DNA from: Sashavirus BDX09P1
DNA: 58,371 bases
Sequence record: OZ035775.1
Reading direction: 5' to 3' (one strand)
Position numbers and translations under genes: made by a program
Shown: in pieces, positions 12,964 to 31,842 of the stretch
How the letters are laid out: every line of letters starts with the position of its first letter
Numbering within the stretch: the first letter of the stretch is position 1
Notes under the pieces: generated by a model
Told to the model about the DNA's origin: nothing
Databases searched by the model: none
The model's input: the letters and a program-made list of their open reading frames with translations, nothing else

Positions 12964-13308
12964 TCAGTTAACATACTTCGCGATCAGTTTATCACAATCC
13001 TCGCGACAGGTAGCATACTTAAACAGGTCACTGGCTGCTTCTGCGCGGTAGTCAGTATCAATGGTGTAATGTTCATTAACATAATTATAGGCTGCAAGGT
13101 AATTGCTGAACATCCCCGTGGTTACCACTTTCGGTTGTTCCCTTACGACCTTACCGTTAAACAGATGTGCGATTAGCAGAATCAGACCACCGATCACAGG
13201 ACTTGTGAGAAATGCGATAAAGAACCATACACCAGGGTTACGACCTGTTTGTTTGGCAACACCCGCGACAACCAGAGAGAAAAGAACCCATAAAATAGCG
13301 AATAACAT
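12964..13308 (-). CDS. hypothetical membrane protein
   Basis: Two N-terminal TM-like segments; AAGGAGG RBS; downstream of P5. Confidence 0.45.
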   Translation of the reverse strand: MLFAILWVLFSLVVAGVAKQTGRNPGVWFFIAFLTSPVIGGLILLIAHLFNGKVVREQPKVVTTGMFSNYLAAYNYVNEHYTIDTDYRAEAASDLFKYATCREDCDKLIAKYVN

Positions 13309-13338: not shown

Positions 13339-13380
13339 AGGTTACACGTCCTTGTGTAATCCGTCTAGAATTATTTTAAA
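13339..13380 (-). promoter_or_regulatory. promoter P5 (variant motif, TAGAC in place of TTGAC)
   Basis: Minus strand TTTAAAATAATTC-TAGACG-17-TAACCT; ~50 bp context shared with P9. Confidence 0.45.
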
Positions 13381-19424: not shown

Positions 19425-19454
19425 GTGGTCAAGAAAACAAGAAGGGTTGAATGT

Positions 19455-19823
19455 ATGGATCCGAACATTAGAGTTGCCACAGACGAATTCATTCGTCGCG
19501 CCTGTAAAATTCACGGTGATCGTTACGACTACTCATTCAGCATTGTTGAAGATAGTTCCAGCACAGTGGTTATTATTGACCGTGAAACTAACACAGTGTT
19601 TTTCCAGGTTGTCGCTGAACATCTGGACGGTGTTGAACCAGTAACGACTGCTGTTGAACCAGTAACGACTGCTGTTGAACCAGTAACGACTGCTGTTGAA
19701 CCGATCAAGAATCTTTCTGAGATATTCGGTAACGTTGCAAACAGCGTGTATCACCAGTGCAATTATTCATCTGAAATGTTAGAATTTAGTCATGTTGAAA
19801 CAATACGAGGACAATCCCCGTGA
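19455..19823 (+). CDS. hypothetical protein with EPVTTAV repeats
   Basis: N-terminal DEFIRRACKIHGDRYDYSFS motif shared with triple-repeat protein 28318-28959; three in-frame EPVTTAV repeats. Confidence 0.45.
   Translation: MDPNIRVATDEFIRRACKIHGDRYDYSFSIVEDSSSTVVIIDRETNTVFFQVVAEHLDGVEPVTTAVEPVTTAVEPVTTAVEPIKNLSEIFGNVANSVYHQCNYSSEMLEFSHVETIRGQSP
19632..19703 (+). repeat. 21-bp in-frame tandem repeat (about 3.4 copies)
   Basis: GTTGAACCAGTAACGACTGCT repeated head to tail. Confidence 0.8.
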
Positions 19824-25768: not shown

Positions 25769-27226
25769 ATGGCTGAATCAATTTTTAAATGTTCGCAAAC
25801 ACCTGCGGCTGATGTAAACGCAACACGACTCAGTGTAGCAAAAGTCTGTGAACCTGTTTCTGGTACACCCTGGACGGTTCAACAACCGAATGAAATTAGT
25901 TCTTACAGTGCTGATATTACAAAGACTCAGCGTACACCGATCAGTACGGACCGATCTGCACGTAAAGGCACGGTAACTAACGTTGAAGTTGCACCGGGTT
26001 TTCAGACAGACCTGACACTTGATACATTCCGCTACTGGGGTGACGGATTCCTTTATAGTAAATGGGTCGGTGCTGGTGCAATTGATATTGATGTTACCAG
26101 TGTTGACGCTGACGCTTATAATGTTACTACTCTTGATGCGGCATTACCTGAAGGTGCTCTTGTTTATGCGACAGGTTTTACACTGGCTGCAAACAACGGT
26201 TTGAAAACTGTAGGCGCTGATAGTACCACTACTGCTATCAAAGTGTCAGGGCTTACTGCCGAAGCGTCACCGCCTGCTGAAGCTCGTTTGTATCTCGTGG
26301 GGTATGCTGCAGCGTCTGGTGACATCGCTGTTAACAGTAATGGTCAGTTGACGTCTACCACCCTGGATTTTTCCACACTGGGTTTAGTACCGGGCCAGTA
26401 TATTTATATTGACGGTCTAACACAGTCGGTTACCAGTAAAATGGCCCGTGTGACTATGGTTGGTGATCATGTTCTGACTCTCGCTAACAGTGAATTCACC
26501 ACTGAAGAAGGTACGGGTAAAACTGTACGTTTATTTGTTTCCAGTTTTGTTCGAAACGTTCCTGTTGATTCTGCAGAGTTCGTGAAAACTGAATACACGA
26601 TGGAAGCACGTTACAACACGACACCTGTTATTTATGAATACGCGCGTGCTGTAGCTGCAAACCAGATGACAATCAACGCACCATTGACTGAAAAAATGAC
26701 AATGGATCTGACGTTTGTAGCACAGGATTTATCAGCACCGTCAGAAACAGCGCTACCAGGTTCCGGGTATATTGAATTCGTGGCTAACGAAGCGTACAAC
26801 ACCGTAACGAACCTGAACCGTGTACGACTGACCGGGATTGATGATAGTGGCCTCAGTACGTTCCTGAAAGACGTTACTGTCACCGTGAATAACAATGTGT
26901 CAGGTGAAAACGTGCTGGGCGTGATGGGTGCTGCGTTTACCAATATTGGTAACCTGGAAATCACGATGGAAACTGAAACGGTGATGACGGACGGTGCTGT
27001 ACTGGCTGCGATCCGTAACAACGCAACAGTCAACTTCGAACTTGCCGGGGTAAACGGTGATGGTGCAATTGTGGTTAACATCCCCGCTATGACACTGGGT
27101 GACGGTTCTAAGAACCTTGCAACGGGCGAAAAAGTGAAAGTCACTGTTAGCGGTAACGCCCACGAAGAAGAGTCGATCGGTTTTATGATTGGATTCAGCT
27201 TGTTCCCGTACTTGCCTACAGCATGA
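25769..27226 (+). CDS. putative major tail protein
   Basis: 485 aa, Thr/Val/Ala-rich, directly before chaperone G/GT; terminator follows. Confidence 0.5.
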   Translation: MAESIFKCSQTPAADVNATRLSVAKVCEPVSGTPWTVQQPNEISSYSADITKTQRTPISTDRSARKGTVTNVEVAPGFQTDLTLDTFRYWGDGFLYSKWVGAGAIDIDVTSVDADAYNVTTLDAALPEGALVYATGFTLAANNGLKTVGADSTTTAIKVSGLTAEASPPAEARLYLVGYAAASGDIAVNSNGQLTSTTLDFSTLGLVPGQYIYIDGLTQSVTSKMARVTMVGDHVLTLANSEFTTEEGTGKTVRLFVSSFVRNVPVDSAEFVKTEYTMEARYNTTPVIYEYARAVAANQMTINAPLTEKMTMDLTFVAQDLSAPSETALPGSGYIEFVANEAYNTVTNLNRVRLTGIDDSGLSTFLKDVTVTVNNNVSGENVLGVMGAAFTNIGNLEITMETETVMTDGAVLAAIRNNATVNFELAGVNGDGAIVVNIPAMTLGDGSKNLATGEKVKVTVSGNAHEEESIGFMIGFSLFPYLPTA

Positions 27227-27269: not shown

Positions 27270-27331
27270 GTTGCGTAATTTGTACAGAACTATTACTATC
27301 TAATCGTCTACTACATAAAAGGTAAAAAACC

Positions 27332-27754
27332 ATGTCAAAGTTTGACCATCTGAAAAAAGCACTTTCTCCACTGGTGCTGAAGTCTTCTGCTGAACTGATT
27401 TTAAATGAAAATTTCAGTATCACCGTGTTGAACCTGAACACCGCTAACCAGGTATATAACGTAACAGTTGCGGACTATGTAAAACAGAACGGTGTGTTGT
27501 CTGAAAACTTCTTTGAAAAACTGTGGAATCAGGAATATACACCAGAAGGTGTTAAGTTCGTGGCTAACGTTCTTATGCTGGACTGGAAACTGATTGGTGA
27601 AGATGACAAACCGGAACCATTCAGTGTTGAAGAAGCTATTGAACTGTTAAGTGATGAACGTTTTGGTCAGGTGATCTACAGTCGTGTTATTCAGTTTGCA
27701 ATTAATTCCGCATTTTTCCAGGACGAATGGGAAAAACAGATTGAAAAAAACTGA
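27332..27754 (+). CDS. tail assembly chaperone (G-like)
   Basis: 140 aa acidic protein upstream of tape measure; slippery A_AAA_AAC at its 3' end. Confidence 0.55.
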   Translation: MSKFDHLKKALSPLVLKSSAELILNENFSITVLNLNTANQVYNVTVADYVKQNGVLSENFFEKLWNQEYTPEGVKFVANVLMLDWKLIGEDDKPEPFSVEEAIELLSDERFGQVIYSRVIQFAINSAFFQDEWEKQIEKN

Positions 27755-28050
27755 TCGACTTCCTCTTGTGGAACGATAAGACAGACGGGGACGACCTGGA
27801 CTGGGTTACACAAGGGGCGGCTGCACGTGGTATATCTGTTCCGGTTGTTGTACAGAAACGACCTAGATTGCGACCTGATGCTATATTTTTTTGGAATGCT
27901 TACGTGGATCTGATGGAAGCTGATTGGGTTGCTTGTGAGCGATATGCACGGGTGTATAACGTTGATGTACAATTCCTATGGAAATTATTGGTAGCGTTGC
28001 GGTCTGCACGTGTTGTCGAGATGAAGAAAAATAAACACAAGCCCGGTTAG
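27745..28050 (+). CDS. GT-like C-terminal extension reached by -1 frameshift
   Basis: -1 frame is open from 27745 and spans track ORF 27766-28050; heptamer A_AAA_AAC at 27745-27751 in the G frame. Confidence 0.5.
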   Translation, partial: KKLIDFLLWNDKTDGDDLDWVTQGAAARGISVPVVVQKRPRLRPDAIFFWNAYVDLMEADWVACERYARVYNVDVQFLWKLLVALRSARVVEMKKNKHKPG

Positions 28051-28063
28051 TTCCGGGCTTTTT
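28041..28063. terminator. hairpin terminator
   Basis: GCCCGG-ttagtt-CCGGGC + TTTTT; same hairpin sequence as near 781 and 1466. Confidence 0.55.
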
Positions 28064-28317
28064 CATTTATGTAGTCGAGGATTGCAGGAGAGTATTTAAA
28101 CCACTCTGTAGCACCGTCAAAACCTTTAAGACGCGCGTTAAGTTCGTGATAGACCTTGTGTACCTCTTGTTCCAGTTTATACGCGTCGGCGCCTTGTGGG
28201 AACGGATACGACACGAGTTTAACCACGGGGTGTGGAGTTCGTCGTTGTAGTTGTCGTAGTCGCTGTTTTAAGTCGTTTGTAATACCAACTTTAAGCAGAG
28301 TAGGACACTGTTTATCG

Positions 28318-28959
28318 TCAGAACACGTAGAGCGTTCCGTGTTCTGACGGGTTAAAACCTGTTTCAGCGCACTGGGGGCAACCTTGTTTCATTGAAGTGT
28401 GATTGTTCGGAGTTTGTTCAAACACACCGTGTTCTGAACAAATGATTTTTACAAGGGTGGAATTGTTAACATACTCCACCAACGAATAGTCGTAATGGTC
28501 CCCGTGAACTTCGTGAGCACGAGTAATGAATTCTTCGGCGGATGAACGTCTTTGTTCAGACAATTGTTCCCAAGCACATTGTAGGCAACCTGCTTTTTGC
28601 TGCAAGTGACTATATGGACGTTGTTCAAACACTCCATGTATCGGACAGATGATTTTCACAGGAGTACACCGATTAACATACTCCACCAACGAATAGTCGT
28701 AACGGTCCCCGTGAACTTCACGGGCGCGTGTAATAAACTCTTCTGTGGTTAAACGTTGTTGCTTAACTGCACATTGGGGACAACCTCTCCCGCGAACATG
28801 ATTATTAGGAATCTGTTCAAACACACCATGTTCAGGACAGGTGATCTTCACAGGAGTACACCAATTCACATACACCACTAGCGAGTAATCGTATTTGTGC
28901 CCATGAACTTCACGGGCACGTGTGATAAATTCTTCTGTGGTTAAACGTTTCCTACTCAT
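28318..28959 (-). CDS. triple-repeat Cys-containing protein
   Basis: Three ~68-aa repeats each with EEFITRAREVHGD+YDYSLVEYVN...VKIICPEHGVFEQ...GCPQC; no GIY-YIG, HNH or LAGLIDADG catalytic motif seen. Confidence 0.55.
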   Translation of the reverse strand: MSRKRLTTEEFITRAREVHGHKYDYSLVVYVNWCTPVKITCPEHGVFEQIPNNHVRGRGCPQCAVKQQRLTTEEFITRAREVHGDRYDYSLVEYVNRCTPVKIICPIHGVFEQRPYSHLQQKAGCLQCAWEQLSEQRRSSAEEFITRAHEVHGDHYDYSLVEYVNNSTLVKIICSEHGVFEQTPNNHTSMKQGCPQCAETGFNPSEHGTLYVF

Positions 28960-28960
28960 C

Positions 28961-29140
28961 TTATTTGTCGCTTTTTAACACAGCCCAGATTAACGCACCT
29001 AACCAACCGACGAATGTCCAACCCGCAAAGATGTTAAGTAAAATAATTGCTGTTTGTTGTTTATGTTTAATGTTAATCGCGATGAGTGCTGGGATCAGAT
29101 ATACAGCAGCGATTAAGAAAAGAATGATGAAACTAGCCAT
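28961..29140 (-). CDS. small membrane protein, superinfection-immunity-like (59 aa)
   Basis: MASFIILFLIAAVYLIPALIA...NIFAGWTFVGWLGALIWAV; GGAGGG RBS after P9; preferred over antisense track ORF 28965-29147. Confidence 0.45.
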   Translation of the reverse strand: MASFIILFLIAAVYLIPALIAINIKHKQQTAIILLNIFAGWTFVGWLGALIWAVLKSDK

Positions 29141-29170
29141 TTTGTAACCCTCCGTTGTTTTGTTGATTGT

Positions 29171-29212
29171 AGGTTACACACCATTGTGCAATCCGTCAAG
29201 AATTATTTTAAA
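29171..29212 (-). promoter_or_regulatory. sigma70-like promoter P9 (conserved motif copy)
   Basis: Minus strand TTTAAAATAATTC-TTGACG-17-TAACCT. Confidence 0.6.
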
Positions 29213-29274
29213 CATTTGTCGCTTTTTAGACCCGTGTTAAACTGTGTATATGCTTCGTGAAAAGGTTAACCACA

Positions 29275-31842
29275 ATGGCACAGTATCCGATTGATATAAA
29301 AATAGACACTGGTAATGCTGACAGAAATCTTAACAGTCTTAATAACCAGTTAGACCAAACAGCTAATTCTGCAAAATCTGCTGCACAGGCTGCAAACACT
29401 TTATCAAAAAGTGAACAGCAAGCTGCAAAATCTGCACAAGTAATGGCTTCAAATACTGGTAATGCTACATCATCTTTAAAGACGATGGCATCTGGCGTAA
29501 ATCTTGCAACAAACGCCGTTCGTGGTTTTATGGCAATAGGTGCGGTGTCTTCTGCTATTGAGTTAGGAAAAGCGTTTATTGTTGCGGGTGATGCAGCTAA
29601 TCAACTTGAAGCTCGTATTGCAAGATTGACCGGGAGTACATCATCAGCCGAACAAACATTTCAAACACTCGCGGATATTGCCTCTAAAACAGGTGGTGGT
29701 CTTGCTGATACTGAACGTTTATGGGAAACCTTATCATCATCATTAAAGGATAGCGGCGCAACAAACGACCAGATATTACGATTAACTGAAACACTTCAAA
29801 AAATAGGTCGTGTTGGTGGTTCATCTGCTGAAGAAATGTCTAACGCATTACGTCAGTTTGGTCAGTCAATTTCATCTGGTGTAGTTCGTGCAGAAGAATT
29901 TAACAGCATTGTTGAACAGATGCCAGAACTGGCAAGACAGATGGCTGCTGGTTTAGGTATTTCAATGGGTGAGTTACGTCAGCAAATGCTGAATGGTGAA
30001 CTTACAGCGGAACAAGCATTGAACGCTATCATTCGTCAAACGCAAAATGTTGATGAAGAATTTAGCAAATTGCCACGGTCTTTAGATCAGGCCACAAATT
30101 CGTTATCTGTATCGTTAGCCACGTTTGTTGCAAGCGTGAATGATGTGACTGGAGCATCAAATCTTGCTGTAGACGCTATTGATACACTTACATGTTTCAT
30201 CAATAAATTAGGCGATGATTCAACAACAACTGCTGATAAATTGTGGTCAATAGCTGGCGTAATATCTAAGTTACAACCTGGTGCTATCGGAGCATCCCTT
30301 GCCGATCTGGTCTGGTCAAATGATGATGTAAATAATGCAAAAGCGTACAATGACCAGGTTGACAGATTTGTTAAAGCATCTGCTGCTGGATACGAACAAG
30401 CTAAAAAAAACCGTGATGCTACAAAACCTATTTCTATAAAAGGGACAAATGCATCAGACGCGGAAGCACAAAAACAGATTAAAAACCTGAAAGAGCAGAT
30501 CACCTACACCCAGGCGCTTGCTGACGGTAATTATGAACTGGCAGCAAGTCAGAAACTGGGTAACAAAGCAACAAAGGAACAGATTGCAGACTACGCCGCG
30601 TTGTTGAAGCAACAGGCAGAATATAAAGAAAATCAAAAGAACCAGAAGAAATCAGCGAGTGCTGAAGCATCTGCGGCTAAACGTGCACAGAAAGAACTGG
30701 AACGTAATCAGGCTGCTAACCAGAAATACCTGAAAACGCTTCAGGATAAAATCAATGCTGGTAATTATGATGTTCAGTTAGCACGCGAACAGGTTCAGAT
30801 TGCTTTAACACAGGGGTCGTCTGTTGAACAACTTACAGCAACATATCAGAAAGAATATCAGGTACGTCAACAGTTAACGCTGGCATCACAACAAGCAGAA
30901 GCACAGTCACGATTGAATAAAGACGCGACTGATGCTGAACGTGCCGCTGTTGATGCACATGTGGCTGCATTGCAACGTCAACAGCAGGCGCAACAGTTAG
31001 CTGGTCAGGTTTCACAGGTACAAACCGATGTACAGGGTGAGTTAAACCCGTATCAATCACAGGTTGATCAGGTTAATCAGCAGGAAGCACAACGTCTTAC
31101 TGTCATACAACAAGCCCGTGAACAAGATTTAATCAACGAGCAACAATACCAAGATATGAAAACGCAGATTCAACAGGCTGGGGAACAAGCCCGTACGAAT
31201 CTTGCAAATGCTAACTACAGCTTGTTGCTACAATCCAGTGCTGATTTTTTGGGTCAAATGGCTGCTGGTCTGGCACAATCTAAAGGTGAGCAATCAAACG
31301 CGTATAAAGCGATGTTTGCACTCTCTAAAGCCTTTAGTATTGCACAGGCAAGCATTAACCTGTGGACAGCAGTTAGCCAGGCTATGGCGTTGCCGTTCCC
31401 GGCGAATATTCCGTTCATTGCACAGGCTTTGTCATATGGAACAAGCGTGTTAGGTAACATTCAGTCTGTGGCTGCAACAGGTTTTGCAACGGGTGGTTAT
31501 GTTAAAGGTCCGGGTACAGGTCAGAGTGATAGTATAAACGCACGTTTGAGTAATGGTGAGTTTGTCAGTACCAAACAGGCTACCAGTCGTTATCGTAGCA
31601 CTCTGGAAGCAATGAATCGTGGCACATATACACCAGGATCTGAAGGTGGTTCGTCACCTAATATTCAGGTTCATAACTACGGTGGTGAACGTGTTCAGGT
31701 GAAACAAGGATTAACACGAGATGACGTAGTGCTTATCATAGGTGAAGAATTCCCACGACAATCAGCGGCACAATGGAATGACCCGTACAGTCAGACAAAT
31801 AAAGCGTTCAGGTCTAACTATGATGCGAACAGGAAAATATAA
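29275..31842 (+). CDS. tail tape measure protein
   Basis: ~855 aa, Ala/Gln-rich helical repeats, position after G/GT. Confidence 0.8.
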   Translation: MAQYPIDIKIDTGNADRNLNSLNNQLDQTANSAKSAAQAANTLSKSEQQAAKSAQVMASNTGNATSSLKTMASGVNLATNAVRGFMAIGAVSSAIELGKAFIVAGDAANQLEARIARLTGSTSSAEQTFQTLADIASKTGGGLADTERLWETLSSSLKDSGATNDQILRLTETLQKIGRVGGSSAEEMSNALRQFGQSISSGVVRAEEFNSIVEQMPELARQMAAGLGISMGELRQQMLNGELTAEQALNAIIRQTQNVDEEFSKLPRSLDQATNSLSVSLATFVASVNDVTGASNLAVDAIDTLTCFINKLGDDSTTTADKLWSIAGVISKLQPGAIGASLADLVWSNDDVNNAKAYNDQVDRFVKASAAGYEQAKKNRDATKPISIKGTNASDAEAQKQIKNLKEQITYTQALADGNYELAASQKLGNKATKEQIADYAALLKQQAEYKENQKNQKKSASAEASAAKRAQKELERNQAANQKYLKTLQDKINAGNYDVQLAREQVQIALTQGSSVEQLTATYQKEYQVRQQLTLASQQAEAQSRLNKDATDAERAAVDAHVAALQRQQQAQQLAGQVSQVQTDVQGELNPYQSQVDQVNQQEAQRLTVIQQAREQDLINEQQYQDMKTQIQQAGEQARTNLANANYSLLLQSSADFLGQMAAGLAQSKGEQSNAYKAMFALSKAFSIAQASINLWTAVSQAMALPFPANIPFIAQALSYGTSVLGNIQSVAATGFATGGYVKGPGTGQSDSINARLSNGEFVSTKQATSRYRSTLEAMNRGTYTPGSEGGSSPNIQVHNYGGERVQVKQGLTRDDVVLIIGEEFPRQSAAQWNDPYSQTNKAFRSNYDANRKI

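What the first reader, a model, noticed from the sequence alone, without database searches (positions are those of the whole stretch)
28041..29212. Minus-strand moron cassette inserted between GT chaperone and tape measure
The tail operon is interrupted by an oppositely oriented unit: promoter P9, a 59-aa membrane protein resembling superinfection-immunity proteins (GWTFVGWLGALIWA), then a 213-aa protein of three tandem Cys-containing repeats, ending at a terminator. The position and autonomous signals suggest a host-interaction or exclusion cassette.
Basis: partly seen in the sequence, partly recalled or inferred. Interest (0 to 1): 0.6.

Follow-up and report, generated by a model that had tools for sequence, protein, structure and literature searches.

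The report
Superinfection-immunity gene plus decayed homing endonuclease
A small backwards-facing insert in the tail genes of this 9NA-like phage carries a T4-Imm-type gene, probably for blocking entry of rival phage DNA, next to a broken selfish nuclease gene; both are known kinds of phage gene, so the finding is real but largely ordinary.

Summary
The minus-strand cassette is real. It is an insertion of about 1,165 bp (about 28068-29232) between the tail assembly chaperone terminator and the tape measure gene. Six 9NA-like genomes carry it and at least twelve lack it.

Gene 1 (28961-29140) belongs to the T4 Imm family (Pfam Imm_superinfect, 1e-16).

The "213-aa three-repeat protein" is not a complete gene. 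It is the zinc-finger DNA-binding half (three DUF723/CapR-type repeats) of a 304-aa T5orf172 (GIY-YIG clan) homing endonuclease. A 2-bp deletion at 28321/28322 shifts the frame, and the nuclease half continues to the stop at 28047 inside the terminator hairpin. The gene is intact in Bas82, 536P12 and two IMG/VR contigs, and independently broken in PJ16.

The promoter is one of 13 copies of a phage-wide motif.

The cassette always travels with a replaced tape-measure N-terminus (aa ~55-397), so the mobile unit is about 2.4 kb.

Most likely, Imm blocks DNA entry of superinfecting phages, by analogy with T4 Imm binding its tape measure protein, and the endonuclease spread the module before decaying.

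Verdict: new member of known kinds, of modest interest.

The parts
28039..28060 (.). Bidirectional hairpin terminator shared by the converging chaperone (T frame, stop TAG at 28048-28050) and endonuclease (stop TAA at 28047-28049) genes. It belongs to the backbone, not the insert.
   Evidence: Terminator scan, 8-bp stem with 6 G-C pairs, on both strands. Present in cassette-less Sasha, PDP46 and AVIO78A, and annotated as a terminator in Sasha.
28068..29232 (-). The inserted cassette proper (about 1,165 bp). Cassette-less relatives have about 11-14 bp here instead.
   Evidence: Alignment of filled and empty sites. BLAST breakpoints at 28070 and 29233.
28047..28321 (-). Out-of-frame 3' half of the homing endonuclease gene: the T5orf172/MUG113 (GIY-YIG clan) nuclease domain, open in the +1 frame through to the stop in the terminator.
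   Evidence: Translation. Pfam T5orf172 48.3 bits (cut-off 20) and MUG113 47.8 bits on the repaired protein. phrog_681 'endonuclease' 3e-84 over aa 4-299.
28321..28322 (-). Site of a 2-bp deletion relative to PJ16, Bas82 and 536P12 (GTG TTA ACT GAC becomes GTG TTC TGA). It creates the premature stop at 28318-28320.
   Evidence: DNA alignment. tblastn splits the protein into two frames at aa 213/214. Bas82, 536P12, L013 and L015 read through for 303-304 aa.
28318..28959 (-). The 213-aa ORF: the N-terminal DNA-binding half of the endonuclease. Its ATG lies 1 nt after the imm stop codon and no Shine-Dalgarno sequence is evident.
   Evidence: ORF list. Pfam DUF723 1.6e-13 in 3 stretches, DUF4379 treble-clef zinc finger 1.8e-6, CapR 3e-4 (below cut-off).
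28753..28944 (-). Zinc-finger repeat 1 (aa 6-69; Cys 34, 41, 60, 63).
28546..28752 (-). Zinc-finger repeat 2 (aa 70-138; Cys 98, 105, 125, 128). PJ16 has lost one repeat length (69 aa, in frame) by recombination between repeats 2 and 3.
28366..28545 (-). Zinc-finger repeat 3 (aa 139-198; Cys 174, 194, 197).
28961..29140 (-). imm: a 59-aa two-helix inner-membrane protein of the T4 Imm family.
   Evidence: Pfam PF14373 1e-16, 61 bits, full-length profile match at aa 13-54. phrog_1039 'immunity to superinfection' 3e-18. T4 Imm hits the same family. BLASTP against T4 Imm gives 26% identity, E 3e-7, with T4 W50 aligned to W41. Hydropathy peaks at aa 4-22 and 32-55.
29141..29232 (-). Promoter and leader: motif TAAAATAATTCTTGAC (29210-29195), -35 TTGACG (29199-29194), -10 TAACCT (29176-29171), Shine-Dalgarno GGAGGG (29153-29148).
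   Evidence: Read from the sequence. The motif occurs 13 times in the window, each upstream of an ORF. This is the only copy between 19386 and 46891, the stretch that holds the plus-strand structural genes.
29214..29228 (-). Upstream copy of a 15-nt direct repeat, TAAAAAGCGACAAAT. The second copy is the 3' end of imm (28963-28977). It looks like the remnant 3' end of another imm copy at the edge of the insert.
   Evidence: Bas82 carries the same G-to-A change in both copies.
29275..30470 (+). Replaced 5' part of the tape measure gene (aa 1-~398). It holds the only hydrophobic segment (aa 85-103) and the TMP_3 core domain (aa 100-290), and co-occurs with the cassette in all six carrier genomes.
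   Evidence: Against cassette-less relatives it is about 75% identical over only the first tenth, while the flanks are 96-97% identical. Protein mosaic. Pfam TMP_3. Hydropathy. 6 of 6 against 0 of at least 12 association.

Best explanation
The region is a mobile two-gene unit in a virulent 9NA-like siphovirus (Nonanavirus/Sashavirus). Its order is: phage-type sigma-70-like promoter, then imm, then a free-standing homing endonuclease gene whose start is 1 nt after the imm stop. It reads antisense into the backbone's bidirectional terminator between the tail assembly chaperone and tape measure genes.

(1) imm. It encodes a 59-aa, two-helix inner-membrane protein of the T4 Imm family. Its most likely role (inferred) is that, once made in the infected cell, it blocks DNA delivery by later-arriving phages by engaging the tape measure protein as it tries to form the inner-membrane conduit. 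This was recently reported for T4 Imm, and HK97 gp15 sits in the identical genomic slot.

(2) The second gene. It is a T5orf172 (GIY-YIG clan) homing endonuclease with three CapR/DUF723-type zinc-finger DNA-binding repeats. Its most likely role (inferred) was to cut cassette-less relatives near the chaperone/tape-measure junction during co-infection. Repair from the carrier genome would then copy in the endonuclease gene, imm, and a co-converted 1.2-kb 5' stretch of the tape measure gene.

In this window the endonuclease has since been inactivated by a 2-bp deletion at the start of its nuclease domain. This is the usual decay phase of a homing endonuclease. It leaves a 213-aa DNA-binding fragment ORF that is probably a relic.

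Shown here: gene identities, the insertion polymorphism, the lesion, the chimeric tape measure protein, and the lack of agreement between backbone relatedness and cassette carriage. Inferred: the exclusion phenotype, the tape measure target, and the cleavage site.
For: Family assignments:
- imm: Pfam Imm_superinfect 61 bits against a 27.9 cut-off. T4 Imm scores 58 bits in the same family. T4 W50, needed for T4 Imm activity, aligns to W41 here (bioRxiv 10.64898/2026.03.06.709160).
- Repaired endonuclease: T5orf172 48 bits, DUF723 51 bits, phrog_681 3e-84. This architecture is the one described for phage T5orf172 homing endonucleases (PMC10448857).

Lesion:
- The window has a 2-bp deletion relative to three relatives.
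- The ORF is intact (303-304 aa) in Bas82, 536P12, L013 and L015.
- PJ16 carries an independent in-frame repeat deletion and a nonsense codon.

Insertion polymorphism:
- Six carriers: the window, PJ16, Bas82, 536P12, L013 and L015.
- Non-carriers: Sasha, Solent, Sergei, PDP46, AVIO78A, 9NA, L014, L016 and L018-L021.
- The junctions are sharp.

Mobility:
- Flanking backbone distances do not separate carriers from non-carriers. The window's tail tube gene is closest to the empty PDP46 and L014, and Bas82's tape measure C-terminal part is closest to the empty Sasha. Yet imm and the tape measure N-terminus are 97-99% identical among all carriers.
- The endonuclease sits at the left edge of the 2.4-kb divergent block, as described for such genes in PMC10448857.

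Past selection on the endonuclease: dN/dS 0.15-0.3 at dS 0.4-1.6.

Promoter: one of 13 copies of a 16-nt motif.

Precedent for the slot and the function: the HK97 gp15 moron lies between the chaperone and tape measure genes and is an inner-membrane exclusion protein whose effect depends on the tail (PMC3594210).
Against: - No experiment exists on this protein or on any siphovirus Imm homologue that I could find. Identity to T4 Imm is only 26%, and T4 R33 is not conserved (it aligns to I24).
- The cassette's G+C content (43.2%) equals that of the genome (43.5%), so there is no compositional sign of foreign origin.
- The endonuclease's target site is unknown, and its nuclease activity is untested in any allele.
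- The perfect linkage with the tape measure N-terminus could equally come from one ordinary recombination event followed by recombinational shuffling of flanks, without any homing.
- The 2-bp deletion could be an assembly error, in which case the endonuclease is intact here.
Confidence: 0.75

Rival explanations
1. One reading: a two-protein exclusion or host-interaction cassette in which the 213-aa Cys-repeat protein is a complete functional partner of the membrane protein.
For: The two ORFs are co-transcribed and separated by 1 nt. Both are present in all six carrier genomes.
Against: The 213-aa ORF ends at a stop created by a 2-bp deletion. In four relatives the same gene continues into a T5orf172 nuclease domain. 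The repeats are the standard DNA-binding module of T5orf172 homing endonucleases. Imm homologues in Skatevirus-group phages, in YMC11/02/R656 and in IMG/VR contigs have no such neighbour.
Confidence: 0.05
2. The truncated 213-aa protein is a domesticated, nuclease-free DNA-binding protein, like PLE CapR. It would repress or protect a specific site in the phage or in competitors.
For: PLE CapR is a precedent for a domesticated T5orf172-type DNA-binding domain (PMC8096241; PMC10448857). The window and PJ16 share an identical DNA-binding region (0 nonsynonymous and 2 synonymous differences). Each carries a different lesion confined to the nuclease half or consisting of an in-frame repeat loss.
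Against: Two recent lesions in two very close genomes are what neutral decay predicts. The downstream nuclease frame is still fully open, so the mutation is young. There is no independent evidence of selection on the truncated form. Four other carriers keep the full-length gene.
Confidence: 0.1
3. The frameshift is a sequencing or assembly error, or a programmed +1 frameshift, and the phage makes the full 304-aa endonuclease.
For: The downstream frame is intact for 91 codons with all conserved T5orf172 residues. The stop context, TTC TGA C, loosely resembles the prfB +1 frameshift site (my own recollection, not tested).
Against: The deletion is not in a homopolymer run. Relatives encode the same residues in a single frame (GTG TTA ACT GAC), so no frameshift is conserved. 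tRNA-Phe cannot re-pair after a +1 slip from UUC to UCU (inference). PJ16 shows that real inactivating lesions occur in this gene.
Confidence: 0.12
4. The 59-aa membrane protein has a role other than exclusion, for example in lysis timing or membrane remodelling. The family name would then be misleading for siphoviruses.
For: Only T4 Imm has been studied in this family. The match is a 42-residue hydrophobic domain. Nearly identical Imm proteins occur with unrelated tape measure N-termini in Bas77 and SeSz-2.
Against: Imm-family genes recur next to tape measure genes in several unrelated siphovirus lineages. The invariant residues (Y14, P17, W41, G45, W46, W52) are shared with T4 Imm. The window's promoter is of the phage-wide type, not one tied to lysis genes.
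Confidence: 0.1

Closest known systems
Phage T4 Imm (immunity to superinfection; Pfam PF14373)
   Same: Same Pfam family, at comparable scores (61 and 58 bits). Both are small inner-membrane proteins made by a virulent phage. They share a conserved Y..P...A / W..GW...W core that includes the Trp matching T4 W50.
   Different: 59 aa against 83 aa, with two rather than three or four predicted helices. Only 26% identical. It lies inside the tail operon next to the tape measure gene, whereas T4 imm lies among early DNA-metabolism genes between genes 42 and 43. The phage is a siphovirus, not a myovirus. Function is untested.
HK97 gp15, the original 'moron' (PMC3594210)
   Same: The genomic slot is identical (between the tail assembly chaperone and tape measure genes). 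Both are independent transcription units encoding a small inner-membrane protein. gp15's exclusion acts at DNA entry and depends on the incoming phage's tail region.
   Different: The protein family is unrelated (YebO-like). HK97 is temperate and gp15 is expressed from the prophage. gp15 has no attached endonuclease gene.
T5orf172 homing endonucleases with CapR/DUF723/DUF4397 zinc-finger repeats (ICP1 and other phages; PMC10448857) and PLE CapR (PMC8096241)
   Same: Same domain architecture: N-terminal repeated zinc-finger DNA-binding modules followed by a C-terminal T5orf172 nuclease. Free-standing, close to essential structural genes, and at the boundary of a recombination block. In-frame repeat loss and frameshifted alleles occur among isolates.
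   Different: Three repeats. Only 27-30% identical to the ICP1 genes. It is co-transcribed behind, and 1 nt downstream of, an imm gene. No cleavage data exist for any member of this Nonanavirus lineage.
Free-standing T4 Seg/Mob endonucleases (intronless homing with co-conversion of flanking markers)
   Same: An intergenic endonuclease gene, present or absent among close relatives, with a diverged flanking stretch of an essential gene that could be both the target and the co-conversion tract. The comparison rests on general knowledge of T4 SegF and SegG.
   Different: A different nuclease subfamily and different DNA-binding domains. Homing has not been demonstrated here.

Membership tests
Imm_superinfect (T4 Imm family, PF14373) | Profile match above the curated Pfam cut-off across the whole domain. 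| tested here: met
   61 bits against a 27.9 cut-off; profile positions 1-42 of 42 at aa 13-54. T4 Imm itself scores 58.2 bits.
Imm_superinfect (T4 Imm family, PF14373) | Small integral membrane protein with hydrophobic helices flanking a short basic loop. | tested here: met
   Kyte-Doolittle peaks at aa 4-22 (2.96) and 32-55 (1.85), with the KHKQQ loop between them. T4 Imm has the same pattern.
Imm_superinfect (T4 Imm family, PF14373) | Conservation of the residues shown to matter in T4 Imm (W50, R33). | tested here: inconclusive
   W50 aligns to W41, which is invariant across 6 homologues. R33 aligns to I24, with K25 adjacent (T4 mutant data).
Imm_superinfect (T4 Imm family, PF14373) | Blocks DNA entry of superinfecting phage and binds the tape measure protein. 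| not testable with these tools
   Needs plating, DNA-entry and pull-down assays.
T5orf172 / GIY-YIG-clan homing endonuclease | T5orf172 (or MUG113) nuclease domain above the Pfam cut-off. | tested here: met
   T5orf172 48.3 bits (cut-off 20) and MUG113 47.8 bits (cut-off 22.3) on the protein repaired by restoring the 2 deleted bases. In the window as it stands, the domain is out of frame.
T5orf172 / GIY-YIG-clan homing endonuclease | Attached sequence-specific DNA-binding module (CapR/DUF723/DUF4397 zinc fingers). | tested here: met
   DUF723 50.8 bits in 3 stretches and DUF4379 28.5 bits. CapR scores 21.3 bits, just below its 24.2 cut-off. The repeats are defined.
T5orf172 / GIY-YIG-clan homing endonuclease | Presence/absence polymorphism at a fixed site among close relatives. 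| tested here: met
   6 carriers against at least 12 non-carriers, with identical junctions.
T5orf172 / GIY-YIG-clan homing endonuclease | An intact reading frame, that is, a potentially active enzyme in this genome. | tested here: not met
   A 2-bp deletion at 28321/28322 separates the DNA-binding and nuclease halves. The window's copy is therefore filed as a pseudogene of this family.
T5orf172 / GIY-YIG-clan homing endonuclease | Cleaves the endonuclease-less allele and is over-transmitted in crosses. | not testable with these tools
   Needs in vitro cleavage assays and co-infection crosses.
Moron (sensu Juhala/Hendrix; PMC3594210) | Inserted between genes that are adjacent in related phages. 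| tested here: met
Moron (sensu Juhala/Hendrix; PMC3594210) | Own promoter and own terminator. | tested here: inconclusive
   The promoter motif is inside the insert. The terminator is the backbone's, shared with the chaperone gene. Neither has been verified by transcript data.
Moron (sensu Juhala/Hendrix; PMC3594210) | Nucleotide composition different from the surrounding genes. | tested here: not met
   Cassette G+C is 43.2% against 43.5% for the genome, at the 39th percentile of windows of equal size.

The most novel reading that the evidence does not exclude
The roughly 2.4-kb block is a selfish "entry-specificity" module. In this reading a homing endonuclease drives the joint spread of an Imm exclusion gene and the tape measure domain that Imm acts on, namely the hydrophobic segment plus the TMP_3 core. 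A phage that acquires the module would switch both its DNA-injection machinery and its exclusion specificity in one step, and its tail would become about 116 residues (roughly 17 nm) shorter.

In favour:
- Linkage is 6 of 6 in Nonanavirus-group genomes.
- The Imm protein and the tape measure core both have their nearest outside relatives in the same Skatevirus-group phages.
- Imm genes recur beside tape measure genes in other lineages.
- T4 Imm is reported to bind its tape measure protein.

Against:
- Bas77 and SeSz-2 have near-identical Imm proteins but unrelated tape measure N-termini.
- 64 of 67 IMG/VR loci with this TMP_3 type have no Imm gene within 5 kb.
Probability: 0.2. Interest if true: 0.6.

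Novelty: new member of a known kind. Interest (0 to 1): 0.3.

Why it matters
Practical value. It corrects the annotation. The "repeat protein" is a broken homing endonuclease. PJ16_055, annotated as "hypothetical protein", is a second decayed allele of the same gene. The cassette should not be read as a two-protein exclusion system.

Biological value. It provides a compact natural series (intact, repeat-deleted, nonsense, frameshifted and absent) of one T5orf172 endonuclease at one site in cultured coliphages, including the BASEL phage Bas82. That makes homing and decay of this poorly studied nuclease family directly testable.

It also places a T4-Imm-family gene beside the tape measure gene of a siphovirus, together with a swapped tape measure domain. 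Given the recent report that T4 Imm binds its tape measure protein, these phages offer a simple genetic system for asking which tape measure region sets Imm specificity: carriers against non-carriers at 96-98% backbone identity.

For phage cocktails, carriers may exclude close relatives.

Tried and rejected
- Tandem Repeats Finder found nothing in 28000-29300. The repeats are too diverged at DNA level. The repeat finder recovered them.
- The generic sigma-70 scan gave only chance-level hits and missed the cassette promoter.
- Rfam at E ≤ 1 gave only a sub-threshold Trp_leader hit, which is the terminator hairpin, and a meaningless frameshift-element hit. There is no intron or riboswitch.
- PADLOC had no model for Imm, and only a weak PDC-S57 hit to the nuclease domain. 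NCBIfam had nothing.
- PDB sequence search found nothing for Imm, and only an E = 0.47 DUF4379 zinc-ribbon hit for the endonuclease.
- Foreign-origin test by G+C: negative.
- The hypothesis that Imm and the tape measure core co-vary as a matched pair was tested and weakened. It is kept only as the novel case.
- Programmed +1 frameshifting was rejected because relatives are in frame.
- A search for paralogues in the window found only one degenerate DUF723-like segment, at 19449-19631. The 304-aa minus-strand ORF at 1989-2903 is RdgC, not a paralogue.
- PJ16 nuclease-domain dN/dS values are artefacts of its internal stop codon and were ignored.
- Zeng et al. 2019, the 9NA-like genomics paper, is not held in the library.
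- No paper discussing this cassette was found.
- Structure prediction and the large protein-database searches were not used, because the family assignments were already unambiguous.
Full report
**What the window is.** Megablast of 27300-29900 identifies a 9NA-like siphovirus of the Nonanavirus/Sashavirus group. The nearest records are Escherichia phages vB_EcoS_PJ16 (95.8%), KarinMuster_Bas82 (92.2%) and Sashavirus 536P12 (91.7%). 9NA is described as virulent (PMC4153490, abstract listed), so any exclusion function would have to act during lytic infection. That is an inference.

**Checking the observation.** On the minus strand there is a 59-aa ORF (28961-29140) and, 1 nt downstream, a 213-aa ORF (28318-28959).
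- The 213-aa ORF contains three repeats of 60-69 aa. At DNA level these are three 151-nt copies at 77-82% identity, spaced 207 and 192 nt.
- A hairpin terminator lies at 28039-28060.
- The ORF stops at 28318, however, and the roughly 257 nt before the hairpin are not empty. In the +1 frame they read ...SDDKQCPTLLKVGITNDLKQRLRQL...GATEWFKYS...EKARN*, without any stop.
- Joining the two frames gives a 304-aa protein. It matches Pfam DUF723 (three stretches), T5orf172, MUG113 and DUF4379, and PHROG 681 "endonuclease" at 3e-84 over aa 4-299.

**The lesion.** Alignment with the three closest phages shows that the window lacks two bases between 28321 and 28322. The relatives read GTG TTA ACT GAC and the window reads GTG TTC TGA C.
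- Bas82 (annotated "endonuclease", 915 bp), 536P12 and two IMG/VR contigs (L013, L015) have uninterrupted ORFs of 303-304 aa.
- PJ16 has lost one repeat in frame (69 aa) and carries a GAA-to-TAA nonsense codon near window 28143-28148.

**The insertion.** Sasha, PDP46, AVIO78A and 9NA go directly from the chaperone gene, through the same terminator hairpin and about 70 bp, to the tape measure gene.
- Filled and empty sites share sequence up to about 28067-28070 and again from about 29233.
- The insert is about 1,165 bp.
- The endonuclease's last five codons and its stop (EKARN*) lie in backbone sequence inside the hairpin. The terminator is therefore not the cassette's own.

**The promoter.** The cassette's TTGACG, 17-nt spacer and TAACCT sit in a 16-nt motif, TAAAATAATTCTTGAC, found 13 times in the window. 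Each copy lies 60-90 nt upstream of an ORF. This copy is the only one between 19386 and 46891, the stretch that holds the plus-strand structural genes. The generic scan missed it because the -10 is weak. A good Shine-Dalgarno sequence (GGAGGG) precedes imm. None precedes the endonuclease, whose ATG follows the imm stop by 1 nt, which suggests translational coupling at low level (an inference from the sequence).

**Gene 1.** The 59-aa protein matches Pfam Imm_superinfect over the whole profile (61 bits). T4 Imm itself scores 58 bits in that family. The two align without gaps at 26% identity (E 3e-7), with T4 W50 opposite W41. Eight columns, including this Trp, are invariant across six homologues from five phage groups. 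A 2026 preprint reports three things about T4 Imm: it co-purifies with a tape measure fragment holding the transmembrane helix and helical-bundle domain, its helix 2-3 loop faces that bundle, and W50A weakens exclusion. The exact slot used here, between the chaperone and tape measure genes, is where the prototype moron, HK97 gene 15, sits. That gene encodes an unrelated inner-membrane exclusion protein whose effect depends on the incoming tail (PMC3594210).

**Gene 2 in context.** T5orf172 endonucleases with repeated CapR/DUF723/DUF4397 zinc fingers have been described in ICP1 and many other phages. Their reported features include clustering near essential genes, location at recombination boundaries, in-frame repeat deletions and frameshifted alleles (PMC10448857). 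tblastn finds about 1,000 phage records with relatives, at most 45% identity outside this phage group. Among the six alleles here:
- dS is 0.4-0.9 overall, and up to 1.6 in the DNA-binding part, with dN/dS of 0.15-0.3. The gene has therefore been under purifying selection.
- The flanks are nearly identical by comparison (imm dS = 0; tape measure N-terminus dS 0.02-0.09).
- The DNA-binding and nuclease parts have different histories. Bas82 and L013 share the nuclease part but not the fingers.

**The unit is larger than the cassette.** Cassette-less relatives are 96-97% identical to the window up to 28070 and again from about 30471. Across 29233-30470 only the first 206 bp align, at about 77%.
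- The window's tape measure protein (855 aa from the ATG at 29275) is a chimera. Residues 1-50 are Nonanavirus-like (78% to Sasha).
- Residues ~85-300 are 65% identical to Skatevirus-group proteins (SeSz-2, swi2) but about 32% to Sasha.
- Residues from ~400 on are essentially identical to Sasha.
- The replaced part holds the only strongly hydrophobic segment (aa 85-103) and the TMP_3 core domain.
- The protein is 116 aa shorter than the 971-aa version in non-carriers.
- All six carriers have imm, the endonuclease and this N-terminus. None of at least twelve non-carriers has any of the three.
- Backbone distances on both flanks do not separate carriers from non-carriers. The block has therefore moved between backbones.

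**Testing the matched-pair idea.** The nearest outside relatives of the Imm protein (46-58% identity) and of the tape measure core (56-65%) are the same Skatevirus-group phages. There, imm sits in an antisense gene cluster between the major tail and chaperone genes, about 1-1.3 kb from the tape measure start. Imm genes also sit in the chaperone/tape-measure interval, on the sense strand, in Pseudomonas phage YMC11/02/R656 and three IMG/VR contigs. Two results count against the idea. Bas77 and SeSz-2 have almost identical Imm proteins but unrelated tape measure N-termini. And 64 of 67 IMG/VR loci with this TMP_3 type have no Imm gene nearby. A strict Imm/tape-measure specificity module is therefore possible but not supported. 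I keep it as the novel case at probability 0.2.

**Conclusion.** The cassette is real and is an insertion. Its first gene is very probably a superinfection-exclusion gene of the T4 Imm family. Its second is a decayed homing endonuclease that most plausibly delivered the block. Both gene kinds, the slot and the decay pattern are known, and GenBank already labels the Bas82 copies "endonuclease" and "superinfection immunity protein". I found no paper that discusses the cassette. Novelty: new member of known kinds. Interest: 0.3.

Noticed in passing
window minus strand: 1456, 3855, 5650, 11155, 13377, 14519, 19095, 29209, 46891, 46954; plus strand: 19386, 51733, 54178: Thirteen copies (at most 2 mismatches) of TAAAATAATTCTTGAC, usually followed by NNATTRCA and a weak -10 element 17 nt on. 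Each lies upstream of an ORF. This looks like the phage's own set of host-RNA-polymerase promoters with an A/T-rich upstream element.
   Followed up: partly
window 28963-28977 and 29214-29228: A 15-nt direct repeat, TAAAAAGCGACAAAT, brackets the imm gene plus its promoter. It extends to about 22 nt with a 5-nt indel in other carriers. The upstream copy reads ...LKSDK, like the Imm C-terminus, as if a second imm copy had been truncated at the edge of the insert. Bas82 has the same G-to-A change in both copies. Unexplained.
   Followed up: partly
window 19095 (-) / 19386 (+) promoters; ORF 19425-19823 (+): A divergent promoter pair. The plus-strand ORF starts with a single degenerate, Cys-less DUF723-like segment (about 40% identical to the endonuclease repeats, E 5e-6), followed by three VTTAVEP heptads. 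It has no Pfam hit and may be a relic of another endonuclease at the head of the structural genes.
   Followed up: partly
window 12964-13308 (-), promoter at 13377: A 114-aa predicted membrane protein whose promoter and leader are 86% identical over 64 nt to those of the imm cassette. No Pfam hit.
   Followed up: no
window 27270 (between the tail tube gene end at 27226 and the chaperone gene start at 27332): A second variable antisense slot. Bas82 (Bas82_0044), PDP46, AVIO78A and Sasha (gp43, 624 bp) carry different small minus-strand genes here, while the window and PJ16 carry none. The upstream region of Bas82_0044 is 77% identical to the imm cassette's promoter and leader.
   Followed up: partly
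L006/L017 (9NA gp46, locus L017 3223-4062) and L013 2644-3528 / L015 1935-2819: Other T5orf172/DUF723-type endonuclease genes (27-38% identical to this one) occupy different antisense slots upstream of the major tail gene in relatives. The window has none there.
   Followed up: no
window 30480-31390 (tape measure C-terminal part): 536P12 is 15-17% diverged from all other relatives here, although its N-terminal part is 98.7% identical to the window's. This is a further mosaic boundary inside the tape measure gene.
   Followed up: no
window 27741-27766: The G-frame ORF ends and the T-frame ORF begins at an A-rich run (GAAAAAAACTGA). Relatives annotate a -1 programmed frameshift here (Sasha gp44/45, 9NA gp48/49, AVIO78A).
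   Followed up: no
L004 (PDP46, PQ783785): The cassette-less close relative PDP46 (96-98% identical in the tail region) is published as a plasmid-dependent phage of E. coli carrying a conjugative plasmid (PMC12137930). Host-range biology in this phage group may be more varied than the O-antigen dependence reported for Bas82.
   Followed up: no
window 27983-28066 (+): A sub-threshold Rfam Trp_leader match (30.7 bits against a gathering score of 41). It reflects the terminator hairpin and is not a real leader.
   Followed up: yes
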